Source: a virus
Lineage: Duplodnaviria; Heunggongvirae; Uroviricota; Caudoviricetes
IMG/VR virus record: IMGVR_UViG_3300009979_000063
Span: 64,001-80,361 of that record
Length of the DNA stretch: 16,361 bases
Reading direction: 5' to 3' (one strand)
Shown piece after piece: positions 5,072 through 16,361 of this stretch. A program made the translations under genes and the position numbers. The notes beneath the pieces are model-generated. The model saw nothing but the letters and a program-made list of their open reading frames with translations. It had not been told where the DNA came from and did not search any database. Every line of letters starts with the position of its first letter. The stretch's first letter is position 1.

Positions 5072-5105
5072 ACTTCTAATCTCTGGGTCGCAGGTTCGAG
5101 TCCTG
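5072..5105 (+). other. tRNA-Arg(UCU) 3'-half fragment; candidate attP common core
   Basis: CTTCTAA anticodon loop (TCT at 5075-5077), TCTCT 3' stem, GGGTC variable loop and GCAGG-TTCGAGT-CCTG T-arm, ~150 bp from the recombinase start. The acceptor stem and the 5' anticodon stem are absent. Confidence 0.75.
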
Positions 5106-12529: not shown

Positions 12530-12616
12530 TCAAGCCCTGTGCTTGGCTCGCTTGGTGTGACGTCCCTCACTCTGTCCGGTGATGTAGCTCCGAATGATCT
12601 TTGCAATGATTCCCAT
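12530..12616 (-). CDS. 28-aa basic peptide (MGIIAKIIRSYITGQSEGRHTKRAKHRA)
   Basis: Not in the ORF track. Strong GAGGAG RBS overlapping the upstream stop; hairpin 12502-12522 follows. Confidence 0.6.
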   Translation of the reverse strand: MGIIAKIIRSYITGQSEGRHTKRAKHRA

Positions 12617-12626
12617 TGTTTTCTCC

Positions 12627-12860
12627 TCAGATTCCGCGGCGGACAGGAAAGACATTCTCTACCCGGTCGTCATCTACCAGCGTGCGGAAGAACGACCATG
12701 CCTCAGTCTCATTCGGAGCCCACATGTAAACCTGCACGGTCTCATCAGTGAAGCGGACGTACACGCCATAGTCATGAGGCCCAAAGACCTCGACGTTCTC
12801 GGCGGTCAGGATGACAGAGGGAATGACGCGGATGCTGTTCGGCAACGGCTGATTCATCAT
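12627..12860 (-). CDS. Hypothetical protein (77 aa)
   Basis: ATGA overlap with the upstream gene; host-like high-GC codon usage. Confidence 0.8.
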   Translation of the reverse strand: MMNQPLPNSIRVIPSVILTAENVEVFGPHDYGVYVRFTDETVQVYMWAPNETEAWSFFRTLVDDDRVENVFPVRRGI

Positions 12861-13063
12861 GACTCTATTCTAGCAGGATTAGCCGGCAATAGGTCACGGC
12901 GAGATAACAACTTCCGTGACAGAACATGCGTTCGAACAAACAAGTGCACTCGAACAATGGTTCGAATGAGCCCGTTGTAAACGAAGCTCGGCCCGTAGTC
13001 AATCGTCAGAATGCAAACGATTGTCACCACGATAAGCGCGACGAATGCGAACAGATAAAGCAT
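12857..13063 (-). CDS. Membrane protein (68 aa)
   Basis: N-terminal hydrophobic helix; AAGGGG RBS; promoter upstream. Confidence 0.75.
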   Translation of the reverse strand: MLYLFAFVALIVVTIVCILTIDYGPSFVYNGLIRTIVRVHLFVRTHVLSRKLLSRRDLLPANPARIES

Positions 13064-13108
13064 GACATTCCCCTTTTGGGCTCGGCTGAGGCTTTCGTTG
13101 ACAACTTC

Positions 13109-13138
13109 AATCTACCCTAGCTAAAGGGAGCTCGTCAA
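13109..13138 (-). promoter_or_regulatory. Sigma70/HrdB-type promoter
   Basis: TTGACG-N18-TAGATT on the minus strand. Confidence 0.75.
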
Positions 13139-13257
13139 GGTGATCTGGCTCACACCCAACATTTCCAATACACGAACTCCGTTGCGTATGTGCAAATGTA
13201 CGCATTCACATGCGCTTTAAGTGCACGCCTTTATTTGCACCAACTATTTCTTTTGAA

Positions 13258-13452
13258 TCAGAATTCCGGAACAACAAAAACACGCCGGGTCTCTTTGTCT
13301 TCAATACTAATCTCCCTGACAATCCCCATATGGAAACTATCCATAAACTTGTCACCAATTGAGAAATGATTGGGCGAACGCCATTCCCTTTCAATTTCCT
13401 GGCCGGTGAATTCGTCGACAACAATAAACAGAATTTCAGTCAGAACAGACAT
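13258..13452 (-). CDS. Hypothetical protein (64 aa, beta-rich)
   Basis: TAAGGA RBS. Confidence 0.8.
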   Translation of the reverse strand: MSVLTEILFIVVDEFTGQEIEREWRSPNHFSIGDKFMDSFHMGIVREISIEDKETRRVFVVPEF

Positions 13453-13514
13453 TGTACTTTTTCCTTAATTGGAAGATGAATGTGCGTTAGCATGCGCACC
13501 CCGCCTATTTCCGA

Positions 13515-13739
13515 CTAGTAGATGTTGGTGACAGAAAGGGTCATTGGCACCCCCGGATTCCTCCGAATGTCGTTTGCCAACTTAGTCAATGCCAATTGTG
13601 CCCCGGTAGCATCGAATACATATCGCGTCTCCGTTTCGTCATCCTCGAATCGGTAGACCACCAGGTAATTATCCTTTGTGGCGTAGGGAGAGGACCACGG
13701 GTCTTCGGCGATCGCGTCAATGTCGCTGTTGTTCGTCAT
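13515..13739 (-). CDS. Hypothetical protein (74 aa), probably leaderless
   Basis: No RBS; a TAGACT -10 element ends 6 nt before the ATG. Confidence 0.8.
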   Translation of the reverse strand: MTNNSDIDAIAEDPWSSPYATKDNYLVVYRFEDDETETRYVFDATGAQLALTKLANDIRRNPGVPMTLSVTNIY

Positions 13740-13745
13740 GCCCTT

Positions 13746-13751
13746 AGTCTA
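13746..13751 (-). promoter_or_regulatory. -10 element of a probable leaderless promoter
   Basis: TAGACT-N6-ATG; the -35 is weak (GTGACC at an over-long spacing). Confidence 0.55.
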
Positions 13752-13900
13752 CACCCTAAACAGCCGAGCTAGGTCACGGCAAGGTAACAAGTTCCTGGTT
13801 CGAACGTCTGTTTGCCGAGTGTCTTTCTGCCGAGCCTATATGCGCGCGTATGCGTATTCACCAGCGCTTTAAATCGGGCGCACATTCGTACCAATAAAAC

Positions 13901-13933
13901 AAAACAAAAAAGGCCCGTCTGCCAACGGGCCTT
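13901..13933 (-). terminator. Intrinsic terminator (minus strand)
   Basis: AAGGCCCGT-CTGCCA-ACGGGCCTT stem with a long A-run on its left (U-tract on the minus strand). Confidence 0.85.
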
Positions 13934-13979
13934 AATTGCACTTCTCCTTTGTCTCGGCTTTCCGGATTCTGCCTTTTGA

Positions 13980-14156
13980 CTAGAGATACTCCCCCGACCA
14001 ATTGTAGGAACGTGAATCGTCGTCATGCCATCTAGTGATTAGACCTGATTCGACTTTGTACCCCATTCCCGCGTAGTCGTGAGCGATATCCTCCGAATAA
14101 ACGAGAGAGACCGGAATGCCATCCTTTGTCGCACGCCAAACGGTAACAACGTCCAT
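13980..14156 (-). CDS. 58-aa hypothetical protein (MDVVTVWRATKDGIPVSLVYSEDIAHDYAGMGYKVESGLITRWHDDDSRSYNWSGEYL)
   Basis: Not in the ORF track. GAAAGGA RBS; terminator downstream. Confidence 0.75.
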   Translation of the reverse strand: MDVVTVWRATKDGIPVSLVYSEDIAHDYAGMGYKVESGLITRWHDDDSRSYNWSGEYL

Positions 14157-14239
14157 TTGCGTTTTCCTTTCGGTCTGCGGCTGTCGCTTATCGGCTAGCG
14201 ATTTCCTTTAGTTTCTCCGTTCCTAGCAGAATTGCGCGG

Positions 14240-14437
14240 TCAAAGTCCCCTGGCGTGCGAATTGAATGCGAACGGCCGGTATCGGTTTTCGAATACAACC
14301 CGATAGGCGAATTGCCCTGGCACGATTCCATGACCGGCATATCCGTAGGGAGAAACCTCTAGGGTGTAATCCCCAATTGTGTGCGTGGTGATTGGATCAT
14401 TCCAAGAATAATCCCACCTTTCCAACCAGTCGGACAT
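14240..14437 (-). CDS. Hypothetical protein (65 aa)
   Basis: GAAAGG RBS; aromatic-rich, protein-like sequence. Confidence 0.75.
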   Translation of the reverse strand: MSDWLERWDYSWNDPITTHTIGDYTLEVSPYGYAGHGIVPGQFAYRVVFENRYRPFAFNSHARGL

Positions 14438-14668
14438 ACTTTGCCTTTCTGCTCACGTTAGAGCAAAGATGATGAAAACAATAATGCTTAGGAAAAATAG
14501 AACAATTCCTATTAGCACTATTGCCGCACAACCTAGTTGAAATTCCGGCATGGCCGAAATCCCTAATGCGACCGGAAAGGCTAGGGCACAATTGCTGCCG
14601 TTTAATATTACCGATCCCTACTGGCCTATGCGGTCAGGATACGGATAATACCCTAGTCAATTCCGGAA

Positions 14669-15220
14669 TTACTCGCCCGACTCGGCGGTGTCCGTCTTTG
14701 GCTTGTTCTTGCTACCGCGCGGACGCCCGAGCCTCTTTACCGGCTCCCCCTTCTCTGCGGCATCCTGCTCTGCACCCTTATTCTCCTGCAGGATGACATA
14801 CTCCTCATCCTCCATACCGAAGTGAAGCCAGATGGCCTTTCGCACGGTGTCGCGGGAAAGTCGGACCGACTCTTCGCCGGTCTTCTCCTGAACCAACCGC
14901 TTGACATCCGCGACGGATGCCTTGTACTCACCGAGTCCGCCAGGGTGCGATCCCGAAGCGGGAGCCTTGAAAGTCCAGTAGACCTCTCCGACGGCACCCG
15001 TGCCGGTCTGCGAAACACGCCACTTTCCGATCTCGAAAGTGATTCCCTTGTCTGCGGCCGTAGACATGATCGGTCCGTAGGGAAGTGCCCCGCGCTCCGG
15101 CATGTCCAAACCGACAGCGGTACCAAGCGAACGCCAGTCGCTGGCCTCATCGATCACCCAGTGAGTCTGCGGGTCCGTCTTCTGCTCTGCCATTTTCTCT
15201 GTCCGTTTCTGCTGTGTCAT
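14669..15220 (-). CDS. Putative nucleoid-associated DNA-binding protein: degenerate Lsr2-like motif plus a C-terminal AT-hook-like motif
   Basis: WRSLGTAVGLDMPERGALP aligns by eye to the Lsr2 DNA-binding motif; C-terminal KRLGRPRGSKNKPK; AGAGG RBS; GC-rich codons. Confidence 0.65.
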   Translation of the reverse strand: MTQQKRTEKMAEQKTDPQTHWVIDEASDWRSLGTAVGLDMPERGALPYGPIMSTAADKGITFEIGKWRVSQTGTGAVGEVYWTFKAPASGSHPGGLGEYKASVADVKRLVQEKTGEESVRLSRDTVRKAIWLHFGMEDEEYVILQENKGAEQDAAEKGEPVKRLGRPRGSKNKPKTDTAESGE

Positions 15221-15266
15221 GCGAGCCTCTTTGACTCGCTTGGTTGTGTCGTACTGTTGTGCCGCT

Positions 15267-15297
15267 AGCTTACCACACTCGCTTTAGCTCTTGTCAA
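15267..15297 (-). promoter_or_regulatory. Leftward promoter P1
   Basis: TTGACA-N19-TAAGCT (spacer is long). Confidence 0.55.
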
Positions 15298-15374
15298 CCG
15301 GCTACGCGCCTTCCCCATCATAGGGTGTGCTCCCGAGCAAAGCTTGTGTAGTTGTGCTGTTTGGCTTGCTAGCG

Positions 15375-15403
15375 ACTCTAGCCGAGTCGCTAGCGAATGT
15401 CAA
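15375..15403 (-). promoter_or_regulatory. Leftward promoter P2, overlapped by an 11-bp inverted repeat
   Basis: TTGACA-N17-TAGAGT; inverted repeat GCTAGCGACTC-TAGCC-GAGTCGCTAGC at 15368-15394. Confidence 0.8.
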
Positions 15404-15466
15404 CCGAAATCTTGAGCGATTGACCCTTGCTCTCGCGCTTGTGCCTTGACCGAAGCGCATGCCTAA

Positions 15467-15495
15467 AGACTAGCAGACAGCCAGCCGGCTAGCCA
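15467..15495 (-). promoter_or_regulatory. Possible leftward promoter P3
   Basis: TGGCTA-N17-TAGTCT. Confidence 0.4.
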
Positions 15496-15608
15496 GCCGT
15501 GTGACCGTTCTGTGACCATCGAACATTTGATCGATAGTTAGCGAGCTCCAACTAACTTCGCTAACGCCGCGCGCTAATGCGCGCTAGACTAGTTGTGTTT
15601 GGCAAGCC

Positions 15609-15715
15609 CTTTACGATGGCGCCAGAATTCGTACCTATTTGCAATAGCTTTACGATCGCGCTATAATTTGTACTATAGTTAATGCTTTACGAACTTTAGC
15701 AAATAGCTTTACGAT
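15609..15715 (+). repeat. Four copies of CTTTACGA (15609, 15648, 15685, 15707)
   Basis: Read directly; copies 2 and 4 extend to AATAGCTTTACGAT. Confidence 0.9.
15639..15667 (+). promoter_or_regulatory. Near-consensus rightward promoter
   Basis: TTGCAA-N17-TATAAT. Confidence 0.75.
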
Positions 15716-15876
15716 AAAATAGTCTAGCGCTTAATCTAAACGGGCATATCGGACATGTCGGACATACAGACAGTTATCGGGCCTACTGTATCGATCAAGT
15801 TGTCATAATGATTATTATCGGTGTGGATCTTGACATGTTGATCTTGCTAGCAGAATAATGCGGAATTGGCTCTTAC

Positions 15877-15905
15877 TTGCAGCCCGTCGCATTGTGTGTT
15901 ATACT
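15877..15905 (+). promoter_or_regulatory. Rightward promoter with an extended -10
   Basis: TTGCAG-N17-TATACT with TG at 15897-15898 (TGnTATACT). Confidence 0.75.
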
Positions 15906-16099
15906 ATCAGTGTCAGCAAGCAAAGTCAACAGACAGGAGTTGCAAAAGTTTGTAGCTAATGCTACTATAAATAGGGCAAAAGCCTTCATAAATGCATTAA
16001 ATTGCATCAAATTGTTTAGTTTCGCGGCCAAATCAGCGGCTGCGCGACCGTATTTAGGGGCGAAGCCCCTAAATAATTAGGGGTTATTGGCTATGTTTC

Positions 16100-16127
16100 A
16101 GAGGCTGTCTTCGGATAGCCTCTTTTT
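16100..16127 (+). terminator. Intrinsic terminator
   Basis: AGAGGCTGTC-TTCG-GATAGCCTCT with a UUCG loop, followed by TTTT. Confidence 0.85.
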
Positions 16128-16361
16128 GCATCTAATGACTAAGCGTTTACTATAGTTAATGCTTTTTAATATAGTAAAGCAGTCGCAGTCACAGCGTCAC
16201 TTAGTCACTCAGCTTGCTTGCTTGCTTATATATAGCTGCTATCTTTATTATATTATATACTTAACTAATGAATAATTCTTCTAAACCCGGCCGAAAAGTT
16301 GCGAGCAAAGCTAGCAACCAAAGCACCGGGCGAAAAACTGCTATAGCTCAAAAGCACACTA

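What the first reader, a model, noticed from the sequence alone, without database searches (positions are those of the whole stretch)
14669..15220. Lsr2-like motif with a broken RGR hook fused to a eukaryote-style AT-hook tail
Seen: an N-terminal WRSLGTAVG-LDMPERGALP aligns by eye to the Lsr2 DNA-binding motif (IREWARRNG-HNVSTRGRIP) but with RGA for RGR and L for the conserved W. The C-terminus has GRPRGSKNKPK, similar to HMGA-type AT-hooks, after an acidic linker. It is the first gene behind tandem strong promoters. Known: Lsr2 silences AT-rich foreign DNA in Actinobacteria through its RGR minor-groove hook. Inference: a counter-silencer or phage nucleoid protein that shields the AT-rich phage DNA, with an unusual domain order.
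Basis: partly seen in the sequence, partly recalled or inferred. Interest (0 to 1): 0.7.

Follow-up and report, generated by a model that had tools for sequence, protein, structure and literature searches.

The report
Orphan early phage protein with AT-hook
This is a real but orphan early gene of an AT-rich phage of high-GC actinobacteria. Its protein ends in a textbook AT-hook DNA-binding motif and begins with a weak look-alike of the Lsr2 DNA-binding motif, so it is a reasonable but unproven candidate for a phage DNA-coating or anti-silencing protein.

Summary
The sequence features are all present. The ORF at 14669-15220 (-) encodes 183 aa; the start shared with relatives is M10, giving 174 aa. 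It sits behind two promoter-like sites that are conserved in a relative.

The protein matches no Pfam, PHROG, NCBIfam or PDB family. Only four relatives turned up in about 6 billion proteins.

The C-terminal GRPRGSKNKPK is a type-I/HMGA-hook-2-style AT-hook. It is unchanged in the 73%-identical relative while the linker next to it varies. The three distant relatives lack it and carry long acidic tails instead.

The N-terminal Lsr2-like motif scores above chance: hhalign P 0.0013, and 0 of 150 shuffles reach it. It is far weaker than a true diverged Lsr2 domain run as a control (P 1.3e-6). The Pfam Lsr2 models do not match. No member has the second hook arginine.

The phage is 46% GC, its capsid resembles that of Streptomyces phages, its attP tRNA fragment matches only Actinomycetota, and the three candidate host genomes checked all carry Lsr2. 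The gene has the highest GC3 of the contig's plausible genes.

Best reading (0.4): an abundant early architectural protein that binds AT-rich DNA. An Lsr2 counter-silencer remains possible (about 0.12). The scan had not noted this on other DNA.

The parts
14669..15220 (-). Longest ORF, 183 aa (P0001). The start shared with relatives is M10 at 15193-15191, giving 174 aa.
   Evidence: The relatives all begin at the equivalent of M10, and the upstream extensions are not conserved. Against P0002 there are 45 synonymous and 46 replacement codon differences. Four relatives at 30-73% identity show it is a real gene.
15047..15151 (-). N-terminal helix / long loop / helix segment (residues 24-58): a weak Lsr2-DBD/HeH-like motif with RGA in place of the RGR hook.
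14783..15046 (-). Central alpha/beta core (residues 59-146) with the invariant FKAP-x4-H-x-G-x2-G hairpin. No known fold was matched.
14741..14782 (-). Variable acidic linker (residues 147-160).
   Evidence: 6 replacements in 14 codons against P0002. Modelled as disordered, pLDDT below 50.
14696..14740 (-). AT-hook segment VKRLGRPRGSKNKPK (residues 161-175).
   Evidence: L164-K175 shows 0 replacements and 3 synonymous changes against P0002. It is the only GRP with five or more K/R nearby that lies in a listed gene of the 80-kb contig; the one other such site is in a stretch with no listed ORF. It matches the AT-hook repeats of P0004, HMGA hook 2 (PMC11947522) and the type-I GSKNK rule (PMC12430185).
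15267..15297 (-). Proximal promoter-like site: TTGACA, 19-nt spacer, TGgTAAGCT.
   Evidence: Read. Both the -35 and -10 are identical in L003 while the spacer differs. The consensus scan did not call it because of the 19-nt spacer.
15375..15403 (-). Distal promoter-like site: TTGACA-N17-TAGAGT.
   Evidence: 10 of 12 matches. L003 has TTGCAA...TAAGCT at the aligned place.
14453..14551 (-). Next gene downstream: a 32-aa hydrophobic (single-helix) peptide, conserved in L003.
   Evidence: 72% identity over 32 aa.

Best explanation
The gene encodes a small, abundantly made early accessory protein of an AT-rich phage that infects high-GC actinobacteria. It most likely acts as an architectural (nucleoid-type) DNA-binding protein. 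[quoted passage not shown] The folded part (an N-terminal helix-loop-helix plus a novel alpha/beta core) would supply a second DNA or protein contact.

Shown: it is a real, conserved gene; it belongs to an orphan family; it lies behind conserved promoters; it has host-like codon GC; its AT-hook is preserved in the close relative; the phage is AT-rich and the candidate hosts encode Lsr2.

Inferred: early and high expression, DNA binding, preference for AT-rich DNA, and the architectural role.
For: The AT-hook is canonical in form and is kept unchanged while its linker varies (PMC11947522, PMC12430185).

Residues about 20-62 resemble DNA-binding HeH/Lsr2 modules by profile and by two shape searches.

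It is the first gene after a 1.1-kb region free of ORFs of 70 aa or more. That region and the gene together hold 10 promoter-like sites against 2.5 expected, and the gene's two upstream promoters are conserved in L003.

GC3 is 0.717 against a contig mean of 0.44 (sd 0.06). All four relatives show GC3 0.71-0.77 within flanks of 47-56% GC, despite about 30% protein identity. This fits selection for host-preferred codons in a highly expressed gene.

The phage is 46% GC. The capsid is 61-64% identical to Streptomyces Stanwilliamsviridae phages. The attP tRNA fragment matches exactly only in Actinomycetota.
Against: The AT-hook is present in only 2 of 5 family members. The other three have strongly acidic tails (net -11 to -18 over the last 40 residues), so DNA binding through the tail cannot be the function of the whole family.

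The whole protein is mildly acidic (pI 6.0). A single AT-hook binds DNA weakly by itself (general knowledge).

The Lsr2-like loop lacks the second arginine. No known DNA-binding family matches by HMM. Structure models have low confidence outside residues 80-145.

There is no expression data.
Confidence: 0.4

Rival explanations
1. Counter-silencer of host Lsr2. The protein occupies AT-rich phage DNA, or binds Lsr2 itself through an Lsr2-DBD-derived module that has lost its hook arginine. Either way Lsr2 filaments or bridges cannot form on the incoming AT-rich genome.
For: The three candidate host genomes checked all carry Lsr2 DNA-binding domains. The phage is about 46% GC. The gene is first behind conserved promoters and is itself GC-rich, so it would not be a preferred Lsr2 target. 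Its N-terminal motif is similar to the Lsr2 DBD above chance. Phage early proteins that neutralise other silencers are known, for example an anti-repressor of H-NS-family proteins (PMC8501957).
Against: No Lsr2 oligomerisation domain is present; that would be the obvious dominant-negative route. Pfam Lsr2_DNA-bd does not match. The AT-hook is missing from 3 of 5 relatives. In mycobacteria Lsr2 is needed for productive phage infection rather than blocking it (PMC10066036). Related Streptomyces phages carry their own Lsr2-like genes instead of antagonists (PMC8612146).
Confidence: 0.12
2. Anti-defence or host-takeover effector that acts on a host protein rather than on DNA. The conserved folded core binds the target. 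The tails (acidic in most relatives, an AT-hook here) are accessory, for example as DNA mimics or localisation tags.
For: Its position as first gene behind tandem promoters parallels T7 gene 0.3/Ocr (general knowledge). The part conserved across all five members is the N-terminal motif plus the core with the invariant FKAP..H.GG.G hairpin, not the tail. Three relatives end in long D/E-rich tails. It belongs to an orphan, fast-evolving family, which is typical of such effectors.
Against: No match to any defence-related or other family. The AT-hook is under constraint in this lineage, which points to DNA contact here.
Confidence: 0.15
3. Phage transcription regulator. The protein binds specific AT-rich operators in the promoter-dense 1.1-kb region upstream of its own gene, or at the 12.3-12.5 kb junction, to time early gene expression.
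For: The stretch 14300-16361 is rich in promoter-like sites on both strands (10 against 2.5 expected), most of them upstream of the gene. The upstream region is conserved at the DNA level in L003. The gene directly adjoins it. Helix-loop-helix plus AT-hook is a workable DNA-reading combination.
Against: No HTH or other regulator family matches. AT-hooks read groove shape rather than specific sequence (general knowledge). The distant relatives lack the hook.
Confidence: 0.15
4. A passenger gene recently picked up from a high-GC host or phage, with no special role in infection.
For: Its GC (60%) and GC3 (0.72) are outliers in a 46% GC contig.
Against: The same GC3 excess is kept in all four relatives at about 30% identity, each in a lower-GC setting. 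No relative was found in one genome per 185,579 species or in 401 sampled genomes of the candidate hosts' class. The promoters and the downstream peptide gene are conserved with it.
Confidence: 0.08

Closest known systems
Lsr2 DNA-binding domain (Pfam PF23359; M. tuberculosis Lsr2 C-terminal domain), including phage-encoded Lsr2-like proteins
   Same: It has a helix, a long loop carrying basic-Gly-x-(I/L)-Pro, then a second helix. Atlas shape search returns two Lsr2 clusters (TM 0.46-0.47 over 36 residues). It belongs to an actinobacterial phage setting where Lsr2-like genes are common (PMC8612146).
   Different: The Pfam HMM does not match. The second hook arginine is absent in all five members. 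The motif is N-terminal rather than C-terminal. There is no Lsr2 oligomerisation domain. A genuinely diverged Lsr2 motif scores 30.1 (P 1.3e-6) under the same test, against 18.1 here.
AT-hook proteins: HMGA hook 2 and plant AHL type-I hooks (RGRP followed by GSKNK)
   Same: GRP-x-GSKNK is identical in 8 of 9 positions to HMGA hook 2 (PMC11947522). It obeys the type-I GSKNK rule (PMC12430185). It lies in a disordered basic tail next to acidic residues.
   Different: There is a single hook, where HMGA has three. The first Arg of RGRP is Leu. It is attached to a folded domain of unknown type in a phage protein. It is not conserved across the family.
Lsr2-like DNA bridging proteins of Streptomyces Stanwilliamsviridae phages (e.g. 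Coruscant HUN41_00008)
   Same: Similar size (about 175-195 aa). The phages are related by capsid. These genes lie among small leftward genes near a genome end. The first motif of these proteins aligns weakly with the family's N-terminus (P 0.009).
   Different: Those proteins carry two clear tandem Lsr2 DBD motifs with intact RGR, plus a Cys-rich C-terminal domain. The full-length profile comparison is not significant (P 0.096). BLAST finds no similarity.
Phage early proteins that neutralise xenogeneic silencers, e.g. the early protein that blocks H-NS-family proteins (PMC8501957); T7 gp5.5 and T4 Arn from general knowledge
   Same: A small early phage protein in a phage whose DNA is a natural silencer target.
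   Different: There is no sequence or fold relationship and no evidence of binding to a silencer. No antagonist of Lsr2 turned up in the literature searches made here.

Membership tests
Lsr2 (xenogeneic silencer, PF11774 + PF23359) | Match to the Lsr2 DNA-binding-domain model (PF23359) above its cut-off | tested here: not met
   No match at E<=10 in the whole contig. hmmscan of the isolated N-terminal segments of four of the five members lists no Lsr2 family. The same model scores 57-74 bits in three candidate host genomes.
Lsr2 (xenogeneic silencer, PF11774 + PF23359) | N-terminal dimerisation/oligomerisation domain (PF11774) | tested here: not met
   No match at E<=10 in the contig or in any family member.
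Lsr2 (xenogeneic silencer, PF11774 + PF23359) | R-G-R minor-groove hook in the loop between the two helices | tested here: not met
   The aligned positions read RGA, RGA, KGA, RGG and RGG in the five members. Some annotated phage Lsr2-like proteins also deviate (RGN, KGI).
Lsr2 (xenogeneic silencer, PF11774 + PF23359) | Two-helix (helix / extended loop / helix) fold of the DNA-binding domain | tested here: inconclusive
AT-hook motif (GRP core, Pfam PF02178) | Gly-Arg-Pro core flanked by Lys/Arg in a disordered segment | tested here: met
   KRLGRPRGSKNKPK with 7 K/R within 17 residues. The tail has pLDDT below 50. phmmer pulls out a protein with three KKRGRPAGSKNKPK repeats.
AT-hook motif (GRP core, Pfam PF02178) | Full R-G-R-P core and the type-I GSKNK extension | tested here: inconclusive
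   GSKNK is present and identical to HMGA hook 2 and the AHL type-I rule (PMC11947522, PMC12430185). The first Arg is Leu (LGRP). The Pfam scan of the tail lists nothing at E<=10, which says little for so short a model.
AT-hook motif (GRP core, Pfam PF02178) | [quoted passage not shown] | not testable with these tools
   Needs EMSA or footprinting with the purified protein.
HeH / SAP / Rho_N-type helix-extension-helix modules | Sequence or structural match to a member family | tested here: inconclusive

The most novel reading that the evidence does not exclude
The family is a phage-borne derivative of the Lsr2 DNA-binding module. It has lost the groove-inserting arginine and been grafted onto a new core, and it acts as the first described phage antagonist of Lsr2. 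It would be made ahead of all other genes from a deliberately GC-rich, silencing-proof gene, so that the AT-rich genome is not coated by the host silencer. The AT-hook lineage would work by competing for AT-rich DNA, and the acidic-tail lineage by mimicking DNA to trap Lsr2.
Probability: 0.1. Interest if true: 0.8.

Novelty: new variant of a known kind. Interest (0 to 1): 0.45.

Why it matters
AT-rich phages that infect high-GC actinobacteria must deal with Lsr2, which coats AT-rich DNA. In mycobacteria Lsr2 is needed for phage replication zones (PMC10066036), and many actinophages carry their own Lsr2 copies (PMC8612146). How lytic AT-rich phages manage the silencer is still open, and my literature searches found no phage anti-Lsr2 factor.

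This gene is a concrete, cheap-to-test candidate. It is small, first in its block of small genes, and codon-adapted to the host. It carries a textbook AT-hook plus a degenerate Lsr2-like motif.

Even under the modest reading it adds a new domain combination (a bacterial/phage AT-hook on an unknown fold) to the set of phage DNA-architectural proteins. It also shows a clear case of a tail switching between basic and acidic within one small family.

Tried and rejected
Family and sequence searches that found no known family:
- Pfam, PHROGs, NCBIfam and PDB sequence searches, with the protein, with each family member and with sub-segments.
- megablast and tblastn against 50,697 phage records: no match.
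- Back-translated scans of viral, metagenome and genome contig collections with the family profile: no relatives.
- 401 sampled genomes of the candidate hosts' class: nothing.

Structure:
- The single-sequence AF2 model was poor (pLDDT 47). The 5-sequence model reached 57.6.
- A weak Atlas resemblance to DUF669 (TM 0.34/0.39) prompted an SSB-like idea. I dropped it because no OB fold appears in the model and the gene is far from the replication genes.

Other tests:
- Homodimer prediction for residues 15-150: no verdict (median score 0.01 with one run at 0.41).
- Sequencing-run look-up: the DNA is held in two plant-metagenome runs, which may be the source of the contig. Two soil runs hold small shares that I did not lay. 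No RNA holder is listed.
- Full-length profile comparison with the Stanwilliamsviridae Lsr2-like proteins: not significant (P 0.096). BLAST and tblastx of the window end against the Coruscant terminal repeat: nothing.
- 'Chance ORF': rejected because of the conserved relatives and the excess of synonymous change in the N-terminal motif.

Full report
WHAT IS THERE

The window is the last 16.4 kb of an 80,361-bp viral contig that CheckV rates about 62% complete. The ORF at 14669-15220 on the minus strand translates without stops to 183 aa.
- WRSLGTAVGLDMPERGALP at residues 29-47
- an acidic stretch at residues 136-160
- GRPRGSKNKPK at residues 165-175

All four relatives begin at the position of the second methionine, and the upstream extensions are not conserved. 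The likely product is therefore 174 aa, starting at 15193.

Two sigma-70-type promoter-like sites lie upstream of the gene. The distal one is TTGACA-N17-TAGAGT at 15403-15375. The proximal one is TTGACA-N19-TGgTAAGCT at 15297-15267. Both hexamer pairs are retained in the closest relative's locus while the spacers diverge. The 1.1 kb upstream contains no ORF of 70 aa or more. The stretch from 14300 to the window end has 10 promoter-like sites against 2.5 expected.

IS IT A REAL GENE, AND HOW BIG IS THE FAMILY?

A phmmer scan of 1.84 billion representative proteins and three word-indexed searches of 5.8 billion found only four relatives:
- P0002: 73% identical
- P0003, P0006 and P0007: 30-33% identical

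All come from short metagenomic contigs. Nothing was found in the phage records, the viral, metagenome or genome contig collections, or 401 sampled genomes of the candidate hosts' class. No Pfam, PHROG, NCBIfam or PDB sequence family matches any member.

Against P0002 the N-terminal motif shows 14 synonymous and 6 replacement codon changes. Together with the distant relatives, this shows a real protein under constraint.

THE AT-HOOK

The tail reads KRLGRPRGSKNKPK. From GRP onward it is identical in 8 of 9 positions to HMGA hook 2, as printed in the peptide table of PMC11947522. It also fits the plant type-I rule of RGRP followed by GSKNK (PMC12430185). The first Arg of the RGRP core is Leu here.

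Between the window and P0002 the twelve codons L164-K175 carry three synonymous changes and no replacements. Fourteen codons just before them (150-163) carry eight replacements. It is the only GRP with five or more K/R nearby that lies in a listed gene of the 80-kb contig. The same extended hook occurs three times in the 376-aa protein P0004. That library carries no names or source, so the motif cannot be assumed to be eukaryote-only.

The three distant relatives lack GRP. They keep only a short basic patch and then run into long D/E-rich tails, with net charge -11 to -18 over the last 40 residues. The hook is therefore a lineage-specific tail and does not define the family.

THE LSR2-LIKE MOTIF

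I built an Lsr2 DNA-binding-domain profile from ten annotated phage Lsr2-like proteins and eight Lsr2 domains from candidate host genomes.

Results:

| Comparison | Score | P | Probability | Shuffles reaching it |
|---|---|---|---|---|
| Five-member family vs Lsr2 DBD profile | 18.1 | 0.0013 | 18% | 0 of 150 |
| Positive control: first motif of the Streptomyces-phage Lsr2-like proteins | 30.1 | 1.3e-6 | 90% | not run |

The two Pfam Lsr2 models (PF23359 and PF11774) find nothing in the contig at E<=10. Scans of the isolated N-terminal segments find no Lsr2 family either.

Taken together, I rate a helix-extension-helix module of the Lsr2/Rho_N type at roughly 60%, and descent from Lsr2 itself at perhaps a third. 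All five members have A or G in place of the second hook arginine. Some annotated phage Lsr2-like proteins also deviate there.

THE CORE

Residues 59-146 are the best-modelled part, with pLDDT about 80 for residues 80-145. They form a beta-hairpin bearing the invariant FKAP-x4-H-x-G-x2-G motif, followed by two helices. No library gave a match worth naming.

SETTING

- The contig is 46% GC.
- It carries a DnaE-type polymerase, a DnaB helicase, ribonucleotide reductase and ThyX.
- Its major capsid protein is 61-64% identical to those of 120-135-kb Streptomyces phages of the Stanwilliamsviridae.
Following that lead, a 33-base piece of the fragment has exact matches in 16 genomes, all of them Actinomycetota: Aeromicrobium and other Nocardioidaceae, Streptoalloteichus, Gandjariella.
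- The three of those genomes that I checked all encode Lsr2 domains.
- The DNA is held in two plant-metagenome runs, which may be the source of the contig.

Related Streptomyces phages carry their own Lsr2-like genes within long, GC-richer terminal repeats (PMC8612146). This contig shows no such gene, but it is incomplete.

A COMPOSITIONAL CLUE

The gene is 60% GC, with GC3 of 0.717 against a contig mean of 0.44 (sd 0.06). That is the highest GC3 among the ORFs listed. All four relatives show the same pattern, with GC3 0.71-0.77 inside flanks of 47-56% GC, despite about 30% protein identity. A bias that persists this long argues against recent capture. It fits selection for host-preferred codons in a strongly expressed gene. 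It would also keep the gene from being a preferred target of an AT-seeking silencer. Several neighbouring small genes in the 12.6-15.2 kb block also have raised GC3.

INTERPRETATION

The best-supported reading (0.4) is an abundant early architectural protein. Its AT-hook would anchor it in AT-rich minor grooves, which in this host means mainly the phage genome. The folded part would supply a second contact.

The main weakness is that the hook is missing in most of the family. The ancestral job of the conserved core may therefore be protein binding, which keeps an anti-defence or takeover role (0.15) and a regulator role (0.15) open.

The Lsr2 counter-silencer idea (0.12) fits the setting. It is attractive because my literature searches found no phage antagonist of Lsr2, whereas phage proteins against H-NS-family silencers are known (PMC8501957). 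No test here touches it directly. In mycobacteria Lsr2 helps phages rather than hindering them (PMC10066036).

A homodimer prediction gave no verdict, and no RNA data were available.

VERDICT

The protein does not qualify as an Lsr2 family member. It is best described as a new variant among phage DNA-architectural or accessory proteins, combining a possible HeH module, an unknown core and a lineage-specific AT-hook.

Noticed in passing
window 14453-14551 (-); L003 1710-1811 (+): Directly downstream lies a conserved 32-33-aa gene for a very hydrophobic single-helix peptide (MPEFQ...). It is about 72% identical between the window and the relative's contig, so it probably forms a unit with the AT-hook gene.
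   Followed up: partly
window 12600-15220 (-), and loci L002-L006: The AT-hook gene has the highest GC3 (0.717) of all ORFs of 80 aa or more in a 46% GC contig. Its relatives show the same excess (GC3 0.71-0.77) in lower-GC flanks. Neighbouring small genes (12627-12860, 13515-13739) also have GC3 of about 0.7. This may be codon adaptation of the earliest genes to a high-GC host, or a GC-richer terminal block like the one described for related Streptomyces phages.
   Followed up: partly
window 15221-16361; L003 1-1114: A 1.1-kb stretch at the contig end with no ORF of 70 aa or more is conserved at the DNA level with the relative's contig. Together with the gene it holds 10 promoter-like sites on both strands against 2.5 expected. 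Earlier notes of this scan list repeat boxes and a possible small RNA here.
   Followed up: no
L021 4204-4731 (-) and L022-L030: The 'Lsr2-like DNA bridging proteins' of Streptomyces Stanwilliamsviridae phages contain two tandem Lsr2 DNA-binding motifs (both with RGR) followed by a Cys-rich C-terminal domain. The usual Lsr2 oligomerisation domain is not apparent in the alignment.
   Followed up: partly
window 5073-5105; loci L031-L046: The tRNA-Arg-like piece next to the integrase has exact 33-base matches only in Actinomycetota genomes (Aeromicrobium and other Nocardioidaceae, Streptoalloteichus, Gandjariella). These groups are the likely hosts.
   Followed up: partly
contig G000:C1 4567-4644 (outside the window): The 80-kb contig holds a single tRNA gene, tRNA-Ile with anticodon TAT (as written on the DNA). 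This is far fewer than the large tRNA sets of related 130-kb Streptomyces phages, but the contig is incomplete.
   Followed up: no
protein P0004 (376 aa, from the representative library): A lysine/alanine-rich protein of unstated source carries three copies of KKRGRPAGSKNKPK. The HMGA/AHL-type extended AT-hook therefore occurs in tandem in at least one other protein of the metagenome-derived library.
   Followed up: no
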